Source of the DNA: the human T2T-CHM13v2.0 reference genome, Homo sapiens
Assembly (NCBI GenBank): GCA_009914755.4
Contig: CP068257.2
Coordinates: forward strand, 40,448,001-40,512,000
Reading direction: 5' to 3'
DNA length: 64,000 nucleotides
Below the pieces are notes generated by a model. The model worked only from the letters and a program-made list of their open reading frames with translations. It was not told the DNA's origin and ran no database searches. This document shows positions 27,360 through 63,303 of this stretch, piece after piece (within the stretch, counting starts at the first letter, position 1; each line of letters opens with the position of its first letter). Made by a program: the position numbers and the translations under genes.

Positions 27360-27481
27360 CTCCAGAGAGGGACCCTGTGGGCTCCTGGTACAACGTCACC
27401 ATACTGGTGAAAATGGACTTCAAGGAACTCCAGCAAGTGGACCCCAGGCTCCTGAACCACATGCGCCTTCTGCATTCCTTG
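27360..27481 (+). CDS. UMODL1: Coding exon 4: first half of SEA-like module 1 (APERDPVGSWYNVTILVKMDFKELQQVDPRLLNHMRLLHSL), phase 1 to 0. An alternative donor 4 nt downstream (exon end 27485, phase 1) also exists.
   Basis: Acceptor ccttgtgtag|. Sequence TTG|GTAG|GTGAGA offers two donors. Paralogous to exons 8 and 13 (VTIKIVNHNLTEKLLNRSSVEYQDFSRQLLHE / VRIKNVRYSESFRNASSQEYRDFLELFFRM), which also end in phase 0. Confidence 0.75.
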
Positions 27482-28624
27482 GTAGGTGAGACAGACGGGG
27501 GCTGCCTGCACCCTCCTTGTGGCAGCTGCTCAGGCAGACCCAGGTATGGGGCCGTGGAAGGGACCTGGGGGTTGGGGAGGGTGATGTTCCCCAAATGGCC
27601 CCAAATGACTGACTCTGAACGAAATTCTAGTTCTTAAAAAATCAGCTTCAAAGAGGTATGATTTACATGCAACAAAATGCACACAACTGAAGCGTGTAGT
27701 TGGCTGAGTTGTTATGTGTGTACCCTCATAGGCCCGCCTGTCGTGGTGGAGAACGCGGATCCCTAAGCTTGCAGGGGTCTGCAGTCCCAGCAAAGACAGC
27801 CTAAGCCCCGAGCTCTTCCCTCACCACCCTCAGTCCCAATTTCTTCAAGTTCTGGCTCCTGCTTCGTGGAAGCCAGCACCAACCTGGGAGTGCTGAGATG
27901 GGAACCGTAGCCCAGGGCTGGAGAGCACCCTGGGGTCTGATGGTTAGCAGCGCCCCTGGCCTCTCCACACAAGTCAGAAGCACACCCCAGGGTGGCATCC
28001 AAAACTGTCTCCAGACGTCGCCCACTGTCCCCTGGGGATAAAAACAAACACCCTGGCTGACCCTTGCTGATGACACAGGTCATGCTTTCTGGCCCATCAG
28101 CAGTGATTACCAACCAGGATGTCTTCTCCAGCTCAGGCCACCATCAGTCTCGGGAATCCCAGTGTGGACAGGGCGCTGCGTGTCCCCAAGGCTGCCGCGT
28201 GTCCCCAAGGCCGCCCTCCCTGGGGGATGGTCTGGCTTCAGGACCGGCTGCTGACAGGGGCTTGTGCTCAGAGGGGCCTCAGCTTGGTCTAATGTGCTGC
28301 TGTTGCCTCTGGAAATGCCGAACACTTTTCAGACAAGGGGCCCCGCATTTTCCTTTGGCATCTGTGTAGCTGTTCTGTGCTTCAGATCTTTTGTGTGTCC
28401 CATATGTCCCTGGGTGTCTTGGTGTCAAACCCAGGGTTGGGTCGCTCCTTGGCCGTTAGACTAAGCTGGCTGGCAGCCCAGATCAGATGGTGCACACCTC
28501 ATGTTGTTCTGGGCTGCTGGCCAGTGAGCTGCTAGACAGGTAGTCTGCAGCCTCGGCCTTAACAGCCCGGGCTAGGAGTGATTCCTGTTTCCTCTTAGCT
28601 TGTTAAGGGGACTGCCCAATTGGC

Positions 28625-28745
28625 CAGTAAGAAACTAGCTCTGAAGCCACACTGCCTGGCCCTAGTGTTGCCACTCATCAGCTGTGTGACCTTGGGTAAG
28701 TCACTTAACCTCTCTGTGCCTGAGATACCTCCTCCATTAAACATA
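28625..28745 (+). mobile_element. MIR SINE fragment
   Basis: gccactcatcagctgtgtgaccttgggtaagtcacttaacctctctgtgcctgag matches the MIR core. Confidence 0.7.
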
Positions 28746-28751
28746 AATAAT

Positions 28752-29050
28752 CGGCCAGGAGTGGTGGCTCAAGCTTGTAATCCCAGCACTTTGGGAGGCC
28801 GAGGCAGGCGGATCACTTGAGGTCAGGAGTTAAAGACCAGCCTGGCCAACATGGCGAAACCCTGTCTCTACTAGAAATCCAGTAATTAGCCAGGCGTGGT
28901 GGCACGTGCCTGTAATCCCAGCTACTGGGGAGGCTGAGGCAGGAGAATTGCTTGAACTCAGGAGGCGGAGGTTGCAGTGAGCTGAGATCGTGCCACTGCA
29001 CTCCAGCCTGGGCTACAGAGCGAGACTCTTGTCTCTAAATAAATAAAAAG
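28752..29050 (+). mobile_element. Alu SINE (inserted immediately after a MIR fragment)
   Basis: ggccaggagtggtggctcaagcttgtaatcccagcactttgggaggccgagg ... A-rich (AAATA)n tail. Confidence 0.9.
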
Positions 29051-60097: not shown

Positions 60098-60170
60098 CGG
60101 GGGTTTCACTTGCTGATAACCGCAGACGTGGATGTCAGGAGGTGTTGGCTGCATGGCTTGGTCCCTGGCT
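60098..60170 (+). pseudogene. Degenerate, frameshifted intronic copy of the middle of exon 14 (paralogous to 61278-61345, encoding FHLLIIADVDVQEV...).
   Basis: About 55 of 63 nt identical (gtttcacttgctgataaCcgcagaCgtggatgtc-aggaggtgtTGgctgcat vs exon 14), with a 1-nt deletion and no splice sites. Confidence 0.45.
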
Positions 60171-61190
60171 CTTCACCACTTCCTAGCAAGGGGCCTGGAA
60201 GTTTGCTTAGAGGTTGGTTTGAAATGCAGCTAAAAGTCACATTAATCCAAGACTATGCCAGATTCCTCTGAGAGAAAGAGAGAGGGAAGAACTGATTGTG
60301 AAGATGGTCACGACAACAGTCATCTACTGAGCCAACCAAGGGCAGCTGTGGTCTCCCTGGGGTCCACAGGCTCTGAGAGGGACAATGGATCTGTTCACCT
60401 TGGTGGCCCAGAAGCCGGGAAGTGAGTCCATGACCCAGGCCTTGAGCCATCGCACCTGTGAGGACAAACCCTGGAAGTACCCATAGGAGGTTTGCACTGA
60501 GGATGATTGAAGCTCATTATAAGATTGTTTGCCTTTCTGAGTGCTTTGACCATGATGGGTTAGCATGGAATCAATCATATAGCGTGTGGTGTGTGACTGT
60601 GTCCAAAGAGACAGAGTAGAAAGCAGGGCGTTCGGGGGCAGGAACCCCCTGTCCTAATGGGGAAGTTGGAAATGCTCACAGGAAGCAGTCTGGGGAGAGG
60701 TAGGGAGGAAGAATGAAAGGGGACATGTTCTGCAGTGCCAGGAGCAAAAGAGCTGTTCCAGAGAAGGCAGCGGGAAGTGGTCTCCCTCCCCACGACCCTG
60801 CACTCAGCCCCCTGCCCTCGGTGGCTGCAAACCAGGAGTATTAGGTTCTAGAAGCCCTTGTGAGCCCCCAGCAAATTTTAAGCCCCATGAGGTAGGGTCT
60901 CTGCCTGTGCCCCCAAGTCCCACCCTCGCCCCACAGGCATCTTTCTGAAGCCGTTTACTGGTTTGGGGGGGGAAACAAGGGCTCTTCTCATATCACAGAC
61001 ACTCCCAGGCGTTTGTGCTGGGCTTGAAAACACAGCAGACAGGAAAGGGGCCCAGAACCAACCTGTGGCTTTTACTTTGTGCCACGGGCCAGCCCTGCTG
61101 CTGGGCAGACTGGCAGGAGGAACCGCCTTGAGACGGGCATCTGTTTCCTCTCAGCGTGGGGACCTCCTCACATGGCCTCTTTCCCCGCAG

Positions 61191-61404
61191 GTGCGGGGCT
61201 CCCTGCCAGCCACCATGTGTCAGCACATGGACGCTGGTGGGGTCAGGATGGAAGTCGTCAGCGTCACCAACGGCAGCATCGTGGTGGAGTTTCACTTGCT
61301 GATAATCGCAGATGTGGATGTCCAGGAGGTGTCAGCTGCATTTCTCACCGCCTTCCAGACCGTGCCTCTGCTGGAGGTGATCAGAGGCGACACCTTCATA
61401 CAGG
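61191..61404 (+). CDS. UMODL1: Coding exon 14: SEA domain 3, second half (VRGSLPATMCQHMDAGGVRMEVVSVTNGSIVVEFHLLIIADVDVQEVSAAFLTAFQTVPLLEVIRGDTFIQG), phase 0 to 1.
   Basis: Acceptor ctctttccccgcag|, donor cag|g gtacga. Paralogous to exons 9 and 5. Confidence 0.85.
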
Positions 61405-63165
61405 GTACGAGAGGCTGGGATGGAGCCTCTCCCGTGTTCTGGAACCAGAGGCAGCCAGAGGGCAGCCACCACCCTTCGCTTTTGAAAGATGTCGTGTTGT
61501 GCCCATGTGGTCCTTCTTCCCCCAGAATTAGATGAAGATGTGAAATAGATAGGACCCTGTCTGTCCCTCTTATTGTGATTATAATTGTGTAAAGGTTGAA
61601 GTGTTGAAAACATCTTTGGGTGAACCTGCAGATCCCCAGGGGTGCTGCTTTCTTTCCGGGTCGACTGCCCCCTCGCTGCTTGTTTCCATGGGCTGAGGGC
61701 AGATGCATCCCTCTCTGCAGCCAGACTCTCCCCCAAGCATAGTTCCCAAGGAGATCCCAGTAAAGATAATTAACGAGAAAAGCAGGGAGAAAAAGACAAT
61801 TCAGATTCTTTTCTCCTATCATACTTGAACATAAATGATGAATGGCTTATAGTTACATGTATCAGAAACAAAAGACTTTTTAAAAATTGGAGATTCATAT
61901 TAATTTTTTGATTTTTAGAATAAGAAGGACTTCCTAAAGAAAATACGATTTTTAGAGGAAAACGATGAGATGCTGACTGCATGCAGAGATAAATCAAAAT
62001 AAAGGCACCATTTTAACGCAAAGTAAACAAAAAATTTTTCAATAATTTGGTGAAGTGTTAGTATCCCAAATATATAGAGAGATCATACAAATAGATAAAT
62101 ATTAAGAACCTGATGGATAAATGCACGAAAGCTCTACACAGACAAGGTATAAAAGAAGAAATATGAATGACTAACAAAGATGTGGTAACCCAAGACATCC
62201 CCATTAGAATGCATTGCACTGTTTGCCCATCAAATTGCAAACAAAAGGTCTCTTTACTGCTGACATGAATACTGGTGAAAGTGTAGTGAGGCAGGTGTTT
62301 GCACAGATTGCTGGTGGCAGAAGGATTTGCTCATGCTTCCTGGAAACCAGTTTGGTGACATAAATCAAACGCTTTCAAAGTGGCCATCCACTTGGATTCT
62401 GAAATATCAGCTCTACGACTTTGTCCTAAGGAATTTGATCTGTTTGGACCGTAGTTTAAATACAAAGATGTTCATCTTCAGTGTTACTTTAAAAGCCAAA
62501 GAGTTGGAAATCACCAATCATCCAGTAACAAAGAAGGTGCTAAGTTACCAGGTGTCCCCGCCCCGGGCTGTTATGCAATGATGAGAATAGCGGTTTGTGG
62601 ATTTGCATGGAGCTAGTTGGTGGCAGAGGCAAGCTATGCTCTCAGAGCATGCCTGCATTTTAAAAGGCTGGAAGGAAATACGTCCACATGCTAACTTGCC
62701 CCTGGCCACGCTTTTCTGGTTCTTATCCATGTTCTGCAGTAAACCTGTTTTGCTGTCAACAATCAACCCAGCATCATGGCGAAAGGCAAATGGCCTGAGG
62801 GCCTTCTGCCCAGGGTTGGGCTTGCAGCCTGGGTCCCTTGGGCTGGACCGAGGTGGATCTGGGGGCCTGTGCATCTCCTGGTTACTCCCGGGAACTGAAG
62901 GGATGGCCCTGCTCTGCCCAGATCCCCCTCCCAGCCCTGGGCCAGAATCCTCCTTCCAGAACAGCCCCTGCAGACATACTTAGCCATTCCCAGCCCCAGC
63001 TTCAGGAAGCCTCCTGTACTTTCCAGAACTGGTGAGCTTGACTGCAGTCTGCTGTGGCTGGAGTTTCCAGCTTTGTCTGTGAGATGCACTCTCCCCCAAC
63101 CAGGCTGCTGTGAGACCACAAGCCCCCAGGGATGTTCTTCTGTTTTGTCTTCTAAATGTTGTGCA

Positions 63166-63303
63166 GATTACGATGAGTGTGAAAGGAAGGAGGACGACTG
63201 TGTGCCGGGGACATCCTGTCGAAACACCCTCGGGTCTTTCACTTGTAGCTGCGAGGGAGGAGCCCCCGACTTCCCTGTGGAATATTCTGAGAGACCCTGT
63301 GAA
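63166..63303 (+). CDS. UMODL1: Coding exon 15: calcium-binding EGF-like domain 3 (DYDECERKEDDCVPGTSCRNTLGSFTCSCEGGAPDFPVEYSERPCEG), phase 1 to 1, 138 nt.
   Basis: Acceptor ctaaatgttgtgcag|, donor gaag|gtaatg. D-Y-D-E-C cbEGF signature. Same length as exon 10. Confidence 0.85.

What the first reader, a model, noticed from the sequence alone, without database searches (positions are those of the whole stretch)
27360..63303. Internal duplication of an FN3-SEA-SEA-EGF exon cassette (and a third, degenerate SEA-EGF copy) with conserved exon lengths and phases
Exons 7-10 (FN3 255 nt; SEA-a 113; SEA-b 220; cbEGF 138) and exons 12-15 (258; 113; 214; 138) are collinear paralogues. Their intron phases are identical (1-1, 1-0, 0-1, 1-1). 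Exons 4-6 (122; 187; 141) form a more diverged third SEA-EGF module with the same phases. This is intragenic exon-cassette duplication with every unit phase-1 symmetric. It predicts frame-preserving skipping or duplication variants, and unequal crossing-over between paralogous introns.
Basis: seen in the sequence. Interest (0 to 1): 0.55.

Follow-up and report, generated by a model that had tools for sequence, protein, structure and literature searches.

The report
UMODL1 duplicated FN3-SEA-EGF exon cassette
This stretch of the human-type UMODL1 (uromodulin-like 1) gene contains two ancient copies of a four-exon block encoding FN3, SEA and calcium-binding EGF domains; this is real but already implied by the published domain layout, and the proposed third "SEA" copy is not supported.

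Summary
All eleven exons exist on the + strand with AG/GT splice sites and with the stated lengths and phases. Exons 7-10 and 12-15 are collinear paralogues: 29% identity over 240 aa (E=7e-32), each exon pair z=8-16, off-register controls null.

The gene is UMODL1 (97% identical to chimpanzee UMODL1). Its published architecture (EMI, WAP, 3 cbEGF, 2 FN3, 2 SEA, ZP) already contains this repeat. "SEA-a/SEA-b" is one SEA domain split by a phase-0 intron.

The duplication is ancient. The paralogous introns share only Alu elements. A bird locus carries orthologues of both copies with the same exon lengths and phases.

The "third SEA-EGF copy" is only partly supported. Exon 6 is a cbEGF. Exons 4-5 show no significant similarity to SEA by Smith-Waterman, Pfam, HHalign or PDB profile search. 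AlphaFold models are of low confidence and match only generic ferredoxin-like folds. A weak signal (P~0.03) exists only on the intron-anchored register.

The frame-preserving prediction holds in evolution: hedgehog and snow vole genomes lack exons 7-10 entirely and in frame, and one bird has decayed SEA-1 and FN3-2 exons.

Verdict: ordinary, already known, low interest.

The parts
27360..27481 (+). Exon 4 (122 nt, phase 1-0). First half of a conserved ~100-aa segment between WAP and EGF1 ('M1'); not demonstrably SEA.
   Evidence: AG/GT splice sites and ORF. Hit by orthologue proteins. No SEA signal.
30363..30549 (+). Exon 5 (187 nt, phase 0-1). Second half of the M1 segment.
   Evidence: An exhaustive HMMER search with this exon retrieves almost only UMODL1 orthologues, from axolotl to mammals (the few other weak hits were not examined); no hit examined was a SEA protein of another family.
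32367..32507 (+). Exon 6 (141 nt, phase 1-1). Calcium-binding EGF 1 (DVNEC...).
   Evidence: Pfam EGF_CA 30.5 bits against a cut-off of 27. Smith-Waterman z=9.7 vs exon 10 and 5.4 vs exon 15.
41006..41260 (+). Exon 7 (255 nt, phase 1-1). FN3-1, first exon of cassette M2.
   Evidence: z=15.6 vs exon 12. Pfam fn3 is sub-threshold in human (19.2 bits) but passes in the axolotl orthologue (29.4 bits).
44246..44358 (+). Exon 8 (113 nt, phase 1-0). N-terminal part of SEA-1.
   Evidence: z=7.9 vs exon 13. Pfam SEA 31.9 bits, spanning exons 8-9.
45948..46167 (+). Exon 9 (220 nt, phase 0-1). C-terminal part of SEA-1; contains GSVVV.
   Evidence: z=8.7 vs exon 14. Pfam SEA.
51642..51779 (+). Exon 10 (138 nt, phase 1-1). 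Calcium-binding EGF 2 (DWDEC...).
   Evidence: Pfam EGF_CA 33.7 bits. z=10.5 vs exon 15.
52960..53790 (+). Exon 11 (831 nt, phase 1-1). Ser/Thr/Pro-rich linker between the two cassettes, with a 15-nt x16 coding tandem repeat at 53234-53476.
   Evidence: Sequence read. Aligned to camel and manatee proteins. Tandem Repeats Finder.
55653..55910 (+). Exon 12 (258 nt, phase 1-1). FN3-2, first exon of cassette M3.
   Evidence: Pfam fn3 39 bits in the manatee orthologue.
57953..58065 (+). Exon 13 (113 nt, phase 1-0). N-terminal part of SEA-2.
   Evidence: The bird orthologous exon is also 113 nt with phase 1-0.
61191..61404 (+). Exon 14 (214 nt, phase 0-1). C-terminal part of SEA-2; contains GSIVV.
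   Evidence: The bird orthologous exon is 214 nt with phase 0-1.
63167..63304 (+). Exon 15 (138 nt, phase 1-1). Calcium-binding EGF 3 (DYDEC...).
   Evidence: Pfam EGF_CA 31.4 bits..

Best explanation
The region is the middle of the UMODL1 (uromodulin-like 1 / olfactorin) gene. It carries two paralogous four-exon cassettes, M2 (exons 7-10) and M3 (exons 12-15). Each encodes FN3, one SEA domain split by a phase-0 intron, and a calcium-binding EGF.

The cassettes arose by one tandem intragenic duplication of the whole block before birds and mammals diverged. They are separated by a phase 1-1 Ser/Thr/Pro-rich linker exon.

All module boundaries lie in phase 1, the usual rule for exon-shuffled extracellular modules. 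Whole modules can therefore be gained or lost without breaking the reading frame, and this has happened repeatedly in evolution.

Exons 4-6 encode a conserved ~100-aa segment of unassigned family, followed by a cbEGF. That segment shares exon phases with the SEA exons but is not demonstrably a SEA domain.

Shown here: exon structure, paralogy, domain identity, age older than the bird-mammal split, and natural in-frame losses. Inferred: block duplication as the mechanism, and functional dispensability of M2.
For: Exon structure, lengths and phases.

Collinear paralogy: BLASTP 29% identity over 240 aa, E=7e-32. Each exon pair is significant and off-register pairs are null. HHalign gives SEA1-SEA2 P=9e-17 and FN3-1/FN3-2 P=2e-14.

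Domain identity: Pfam EGF_CA x3, SEA and fn3. The SEA profile hits the TMPRSS11D SEA structures 2e7v and 8vis.

Gene identity: named UMODL1 hits, 97% identity to Pan troglodytes. The published architecture has EMI, WAP, FN3, cbEGF, SEA and ZP domains (PMC3542605, PMC8874799, PMC3489600).

Age:
- No DNA similarity between the blocks except Alu elements.
- The bird locus L001 has orthologues of both cassettes. Exons 6, 7, 10, 13 and 14 have lengths identical to human (141, 255, 138, 113, 214 nt) and exon 15 is 132 vs 138 nt, all with the human phases.
- Bird SEA1 is 50% identical to human M2, but only 27% over a short stretch to M3. Bird SEA2 is 43% identical to M3 and has no significant match to M2.

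In-frame losses:
- Vole L002 and hedgehog L003 are gap-free and have no exons 7-10 between exon 6 and exon 11. In the vole, both tblastn and a profile search of the exon 6 - exon 12 interval found nothing; in the hedgehog only tblastn was run.
- In the bird, exon 9 has an in-frame TAA, the exon 8 acceptor is shifted, and FN3-2 survives only as a relic.
Against: No human transcript data were available, so the exon model rests on splice consensus, the open frame and orthologous protein models, several of which are automatic predictions.

Block duplication, as opposed to two independent assemblies of the same three module types, is inferred from collinearity, matched exon sizes and the shared intra-SEA intron. 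I could not test whether that intron position is common to SEA domains of other genes.

The bird decay rests on one draft assembly. The axolotl model has only one FN3-SEA unit, which is closer to M2, so the age beyond amniotes is unresolved.
Confidence: 0.9

Rival explanations
1. Three-copy model. Exons 4-6 are a third, strongly diverged copy of the SEA-cbEGF part of the cassette, so the gene was built by two rounds of duplication of a SEA-EGF unit.
For: - Same exon plan: two exons with phases 1-0 and 0-1 totalling 309 nt against 333 and 327 nt, followed by a phase 1-1 cbEGF exon of 141 nt against 138 nt.
- All three HHalign local alignments fall in the one register that superimposes the phase-0 intron (M1 40|41 on SEA 37|38).
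- That pre-specified diagonal ranks 1st to 5th of about 180, and is matched by 59 of 2000 column shuffles.
- The first AlphaFold model has beta-alpha-beta-beta-alpha order, and its top Foldseek hits are ferredoxin-like folds, the fold class of SEA.
- The segment is conserved from axolotl to human.
Against: - Smith-Waterman z<=1.0 for exons 4 and 5 against the SEA exons.
- No Pfam SEA hit at E<=10 in 9 diverse orthologues.
- HHalign P=0.14-0.41, no better than M1 vs FN3 or SEA vs FN3 controls.
- The diagonal score is reached on some diagonal in 94% of shuffles.
- PDB profile searches are negative, while the SEA profile finds SEA structures.
- The second AlphaFold model does not form the sheet.
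- There is no GSVVV-type motif.
- A phase 1-1 cbEGF exon is generic.
Confidence: 0.3
2. Independent assembly. The two FN3-SEA-EGF arrays were put together separately by exon shuffling of common extracellular modules, not by duplication of a block.
For: FN3, SEA and cbEGF are widespread mobile modules with phase-1 boundaries. Sequence identity between the copies is only 29%.
Against: - All four exon pairs are reciprocal best matches, in the same order, with nearly identical lengths (255/258, 113/113, 220/214, 138/138 nt).
- Both copies share the same phase-0 intron inside SEA.
- tblastn of human exons against the bird, vole and hedgehog loci shows FN3-1/FN3-2 and EGF2/EGF3 cross-matching each other.
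- The database search with the M3 profile listed 82 hits. The named and inspected ones were UMODL1-type sequences; most of the unnamed fragments were not examined.
Confidence: 0.05
3. Recent segmental duplication or assembly artefact that produces repeated exons.
For: None beyond the repeated exon sizes.
Against: No nucleotide-level similarity exists between the blocks at word size 11, apart from Alu elements in mixed order and orientation. Protein identity is 29%. Both copies have separate orthologues in a bird.
Confidence: 0.01

Closest known systems
UMODL1 / olfactorin as published (Shibuya et al. 2004 and Di Schiavi et al. 2005, as cited in PMC8874799, PMC3542605 and PMC3489600)
   Same: Same gene. 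The papers list EMI, WAP, cbEGF, FN3, SEA, ZP and TM domains in about 23 exons over about 80 kb on 21q22.3. My recollection of the UniProt entry (not checked here) is 3 EGF, 2 FN3 and 2 SEA, so the FN3-SEA-EGF repeat is already part of the known architecture.
   Different: The papers I could read list the domains but do not spell out exon lengths, phases, the age of the duplication or lineage-specific cassette loss. The primary papers were not readable here, so they may cover some of this.
SEA-EGF juxtamembrane modules of transmembrane mucins (MUC3, MUC12, MUC13, MUC17) and of IMPG1/IMPG2 (from my own knowledge, not tested here)
   Same: A SEA domain directly adjacent to EGF-like domains in the ectodomain of a membrane-anchored glycoprotein with a mucin-like Ser/Thr/Pro stretch. 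A GSVVV-type motif is present in the SEA domain.
   Different: UMODL1 puts an FN3 in front of each SEA and ends in a ZP module. Cleavage of the UMODL1 SEA domains has not been shown here.
Class 1-1 exon-shuffled extracellular modules (Patthy's phase rule; established knowledge)
   Same: The FN3, SEA (as an exon pair), cbEGF and linker units all start and end in phase 1, which allows in-frame insertion, duplication and deletion.
   Different: Nothing unusual. This locus is a textbook example.
Anosmin-1 (ANOS1) WAP-FN3 arrangement (PMC8874799)
   Same: An N-terminal WAP followed by FN3 repeats. This is the basis for the proposed anosmin-like action of olfactorin on FGFR signalling.
   Different: In UMODL1 the WAP and the first FN3 are separated by the unassigned exon 4-5 segment and cbEGF1. 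Anosmin-1 has no SEA, cbEGF or ZP domains.

Membership tests
UMODL1 orthologue | High identity to annotated UMODL1 proteins, with a collinear exon series | tested here: met
   97% identity to Pan troglodytes UMODL1 over M1. 58% identity over 909 aa to manatee UMODL1, with no junction gaps. Named hits from camel, whale, Otolemur and others.
UMODL1 orthologue | N-terminal signal peptide, EMI and WAP exons upstream | tested here: met
   tblastn of orthologues hits the window at 13629-13703, about 18317-18568 and 26147-26311. Pfam finds WAP in the orthologues.
UMODL1 orthologue | C-terminal ZP module and transmembrane anchor | not testable with these tools
   These lie downstream of the window end (64000). 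They are present in the orthologues P0068, P0071 and P0080.
SEA domain (Pfam PF01390): exons 8-9 | Match to the family profile at or above the curated cut-off | tested here: met
   31.9 bits against a cut-off of 26.4, covering M2 residues 87-163.
SEA domain (Pfam PF01390): exons 13-14 | Match to the family profile, or significant homology to a member | tested here: met
   The human sequence alone is sub-threshold (20.7 bits, E=4.6e-4). HHalign to SEA-1 gives P=9e-17. Manatee shows two SEA stretches totalling 53.5 bits.
SEA domain (Pfam PF01390): exons 4-5 | Match to the family profile, or significant homology or fold match to a member | tested here: not met
Autoproteolytic SEA subclass | G|SVVV-type cleavage motif between strands beta2 and beta3 | tested here: met
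   GSVVV is in exon 9 and GSIVV in exon 14, read directly from the translation. G, S, V and V are invariant in the SEA1/SEA2 alignment. Only the motif was tested.
Autoproteolytic SEA subclass | Actual self-cleavage of the protein | not testable with these tools
   This needs biochemistry.
Fibronectin type III (PF00041): exons 7 and 12 | Match to the family profile | tested here: met
   Human exons are sub-threshold (19.2 and 19.3 bits against 25). Orthologous domains pass: manatee FN3-2 39 bits, axolotl FN3-1-type 29.4 bits, hedgehog FN3-2 25.5 bits.
Calcium-binding EGF (PF07645): exons 6, 10 and 15 | Match above the cut-off, and an N-terminal D-x-[DN]-E-C motif | tested here: met
   30.5, 33.7 and 31.4 bits against a cut-off of 27. 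The motifs are DVNEC, DWDEC and DYDEC, with the Asp codon split by the phase-1 intron.
Intragenic tandem cassette duplication | Collinear paralogous exons with the same intron positions and phases | tested here: met
Intragenic tandem cassette duplication | The copies are each other's closest relatives among all FN3 and SEA domains | tested here: inconclusive
   Database searches gave UMODL1-type hits among those named or inspected, and M2/M3 exons cross-match at orthologous loci. No explicit domain phylogeny with outgroups was built.

The most novel reading that the evidence does not exclude
The conserved ~100-aa segment encoded by exons 4-5, which is not assigned to any family, is a cryptic and extremely diverged SEA-like (ferredoxin-like) domain. 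It would retain the ancestral intra-domain phase-0 intron. UMODL1 would then be built from three serial SEA-cbEGF units, and its modules are evolutionarily expendable: M2 was lost independently in hedgehog and vole, and SEA-1 and FN3-2 have decayed in a bird.
Probability: 0.3. Interest if true: 0.2.

Novelty: already known. Interest (0 to 1): 0.12.

Why it matters
It matters little beyond annotation. The repeat is part of the known UMODL1 domain layout and follows the standard phase 1-1 rule for extracellular modules.

Three minor points are of use:
- In human variant interpretation, deletion or skipping of exons 7-10, of exon 11 or of single phase 1-1 exons stays in frame. The whole M2 cassette is naturally absent in two mammals, so such variants may be tolerated.
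- Both SEA domains carry GSVVV-type motifs, so UMODL1 may be self-cleaved like the SEA mucins.
- The exon 4-5 segment is a conserved domain with no family assignment and deserves a proper structural look.

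Tried and rejected
1. A brute-force search for AG...GT open segments of the claimed lengths was too noisy to use. I replaced it with peptide-anchored boundary reading.

2. Intron dot-plot. This was meant to date the duplication, but it found only Alu elements, confirmed as 7SL-derived by Rfam. A recent duplication is rejected.

I ran exon 5 alone instead and retrieved almost only UMODL1 orthologues.

4. HHalign with thin profiles gave P=0.08. My first run with richer profiles wrongly passed -glob. I repeated it in local mode and it was still not significant.

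5. Two AlphaFold runs on M1 with 55- and 39-row alignments gave pLDDT 59 and 62. That is too low for a firm fold call.

7. The Pei & Grishin 2017 paper on divergent SEA domains could not be read. I do not know whether it already lists this UMODL1 segment.

8. The third homologue search, with an M3 profile, found mammalian and bird exon fragments but no amphibian or fish M3. The duplication cannot be dated beyond amniotes.

9. Alu-mediated or paralogous-intron recombination as the cause of the natural M2 losses is rejected. The retained FN3 in vole and hedgehog is clearly FN3-2 (61-62% identity, against 26-27% to FN3-1) and exon 11 is retained. The deletions therefore run from intron 6 to intron 10 rather than forming an M2/M3 hybrid.

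Full report
**What is there**

The window is mammalian genomic DNA. It contains Alu elements, detected as 7SL-derived by Rfam. Reading the splice sites around the exon-like ORF fragments gives eleven + strand exons with canonical AG/GT sites.

| Exon | Coordinates | Length (nt) | Phase |
|---|---|---|---|
| 4 | 27360-27481 | 122 | 1-0 |
| 5 | 30363-30549 | 187 | 0-1 |
| 6 | 32367-32507 | 141 | 1-1 |
| 7 | 41006-41260 | 255 | 1-1 |
| 8 | 44246-44358 | 113 | 1-0 |
| 9 | 45948-46167 | 220 | 0-1 |
| 10 | 51642-51779 | 138 | 1-1 |
| 12 | 55653-55910 | 258 | 1-1 |
| 13 | 57953-58065 | 113 | 1-0 |
| 14 | 61191-61404 | 214 | 0-1 |
| 15 | 63167-63304 | 138 | 1-1 |

- Exon 11 is 52960-53790 (831 nt, phase 1-1) and encodes a Ser/Thr/Pro-rich linker.
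- Exons 1-3 (signal peptide, EMI, WAP) map at about 13.6, 18.3 and 26.2 kb.
- Exons 4-15 joined give an open 909-aa frame. It aligns to manatee UMODL1 at 58% identity with no gap at any junction.

**Gene identity**

Database hits are named uromodulin-like 1, from camel, grey whale, chimpanzee (97% identity), orang-utan, manatee, hedgehog, snow vole, Otolemur, python and axolotl. The literature describes UMODL1/olfactorin as a modular protein with EMI, WAP, calcium-binding EGF, FN3, SEA, ZP and TM domains. It has about 23 exons over about 80 kb on 21q22.3 (PMC3542605, PMC8874799, PMC3489600). The FN3-SEA-EGF repeat is therefore part of the known architecture.

**Is the paralogy real?**

Yes.
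- M2 (exons 7-10) and M3 (exons 12-15) align end to end: 29% identity over 240 aa, E=7e-32.
- Each exon pair is significant on its own. Smith-Waterman z-scores are 15.6, 7.9, 8.7 and 10.5, with 0 of 2000 shuffles reaching the observed score.
- Eight off-register M2/M3 pairs give z<=1.1.
- With orthologue profiles, HHalign gives SEA1 vs SEA2 P=9e-17 and FN3-1 vs FN3-2 P=2e-14.
- Pfam assigns EGF_CA to exons 6, 10 and 15, all above the cut-off. It assigns SEA to exons 8-9 above the cut-off, and to exons 13-14 below it in human but supported by homology. It assigns fn3 to exons 7 and 12, sub-threshold in human but passing in orthologues.
- The SEA profile also finds the solved SEA domain of TMPRSS11D.

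The title's 'SEA-SEA' is a single SEA domain split by a phase-0 intron.

**Age**

blastn at word size 11 between the genomic blocks finds only ~300-nt elements. They occur in both orientations and out of order, and they coincide with Rfam 7SL/Alu matches. There is no intronic or even exonic DNA similarity.

A bird locus (Willisornis, L001) carries, in order: EMI, WAP, ex4, ex5, EGF1, FN3-1, SEA-1a, SEA-1b, EGF2, linker, SEA-2a, SEA-2b, EGF3 and ZP. Its exon lengths match or nearly match human, with the same phases:

| Exon | Bird (nt) | Human (nt) |
|---|---|---|
| 5 | 193 | 187 |
| 6 | 141 | 141 |
| 7 | 255 | 255 |
| 10 | 138 | 138 |
| 13 | 113 | 113 |
| 14 | 214 | 214 |
| 15 | 132 | 138 |

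Bird SEA1 is 50% identical to human M2. Bird SEA2 is 43% identical to human M3, and the cross comparisons are far weaker. The duplication therefore predates the bird-mammal split.

The axolotl model has one FN3-SEA unit that is closer to M2 (123-138 bits) than to M3 (67-72 bits). Without an outgroup this does not settle an older date. A further search found no amphibian or fish M3.

**The third copy**

Exon 6 is a cbEGF similar to exons 10 and 15. That is expected of any cbEGF exon, and phase 1-1 is the norm for them.

Evidence against exons 4-5 being SEA:
- Smith-Waterman z<=1.0 against the SEA exons.
- No Pfam SEA hit in human or in nine diverse orthologues, even at E<=10.
- No relevant PDB sequence hit.
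- An exhaustive HMMER search with exon 5 retrieves almost only UMODL1 orthologues.
- HHalign in local mode gives P=0.20 (SEA1), 0.41 (SEA2) and 0.14 (both). This is no better than negative controls such as M1 vs FN3-1 (P=0.005, a short spurious stretch) or SEA2 vs FN3-2 (P=0.04).
- Two AlphaFold runs gave pLDDT 59 and 62.

In favour:
- The two-exon plan, phases and total length resemble the SEA pair.
- All three HHalign alignments fall in the register that superimposes the phase-0 intron.
- That pre-specified diagonal ranks 1st to 5th of about 180 and is matched by 59 of 2000 shuffles. Its absolute score, however, is reached on some diagonal in 94% of shuffles.

I rate the third-SEA reading at about 0.3. 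The segment is at least a conserved domain from axolotl to human.

**Frame-preserving variants**

In the chromosome-level, gap-free assemblies of snow vole (L002) and hedgehog (L003), exon 6 is followed by exon 11 after 5 kb and 0.77 kb respectively. No trace of exons 7-10 was found: by tblastn in both species, and also by a profile search of the vole exon 6 - exon 12 interval. The annotated proteins join exon 6 to exon 11 in frame.

M2 is present in primates, camel, manatee, reptiles and the bird. These are therefore two independent losses.

The retained FN3 in both species is FN3-2 (61-62% identity, against 26-27% to FN3-1) and the linker exon is kept. The deletions thus span intron 6 to intron 10. 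They are not M2/M3 hybrids produced by recombination between paralogous introns.

In the bird, exon 9 carries an in-frame TAA. The exon 8 acceptor gives 111 nt rather than 113 nt. FN3-2 survives only as a C-terminal relic behind stop codons. The gene model skips all three in frame. This rests on one draft genome.

**Verdict**

It is a standard example of phase 1-1 module duplication in a gene whose domain repeat is already published. Interest is low.

Noticed in passing
window 53234-53476 (inside exon 11): An in-frame 15-nt tandem repeat of 16.2 copies (83% matches) encodes SPSQG-type pentapeptides. It accounts for the only large gap against manatee UMODL1 (about 80 aa missing in manatee), so it looks like a lineage-specific coding minisatellite expansion and may be polymorphic in length.
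   Followed up: partly
window 20433-20835; 42785-43044; 50915-51261; 54219-54809: Four intronic minisatellites: 50 nt x8 at 97% identity in intron 2, 34 nt x7.8 in intron 7, 43/85/128 nt in intron 9, and 19 nt x32 in intron 11. Several give long spurious proline- or cysteine-rich ORFs in the ORF list.
   Followed up: no
window about 35940-36017 (intron 6): A short ORF (RGLEIHLELRA...NCL, then a stop) forms the C-terminus of chimpanzee 'UMODL1 isoform 11' (P0016) and of P0006. It is probably an alternative terminal exon giving a truncated product that ends after EGF1.
   Followed up: partly
window exon 9 (45948-46167) and exon 14 (61191-61404): SEA-1 contains GSVVV and SEA-2 contains GSIVV, the motif at which SEA domains of MUC1-type mucins self-cleave (my own knowledge). 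G, S, V and V are invariant in the SEA1/SEA2 alignment. UMODL1 may therefore be autoproteolytically nicked at two sites.
   Followed up: partly
L002 (snow vole) 19486-24527; L003 (hedgehog) 12107-12875: The whole M2 cassette (exons 7-10: FN3-1, SEA-1, EGF2) is absent from two gap-free chromosome-level assemblies. The reading frame is preserved. These are two independent losses in mammals.
   Followed up: yes
L001 (bird, Willisornis vidua) about 16121-16231, 18675-18890, 26270-26400: The SEA-1 exons look decayed: the exon 8 acceptor gives 111 nt rather than 113 nt, and exon 9 has an in-frame TAA. FN3-2 survives only as a C-terminal relic preceded by stop codons. The annotated protein skips them in frame. 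No bird FN3-2 fragment turned up in the database search, whereas bird SEA-2 exons did.
   Followed up: partly
window 28753-29067, 40567-40863, 41767-42003, 46511-46829, 58133-58445, 58875-59173: Alu elements in introns 4, 6, 7, 9 and 13 are the only DNA similarity among the three module regions. Three of them reach the Rfam Metazoa_SRP gathering score.
   Followed up: yes
P0080 (axolotl UMODL1, XP_069492313.1): The axolotl model has the M1 segment, EGF1 and a single FN3-SEA unit (closer to M2), then goes straight to a Ser/Thr-rich linker and ZP, with no EGF2 or M3. This is either the ancestral one-cassette state, a loss, or an incomplete model in a giant genome.
   Followed up: partly
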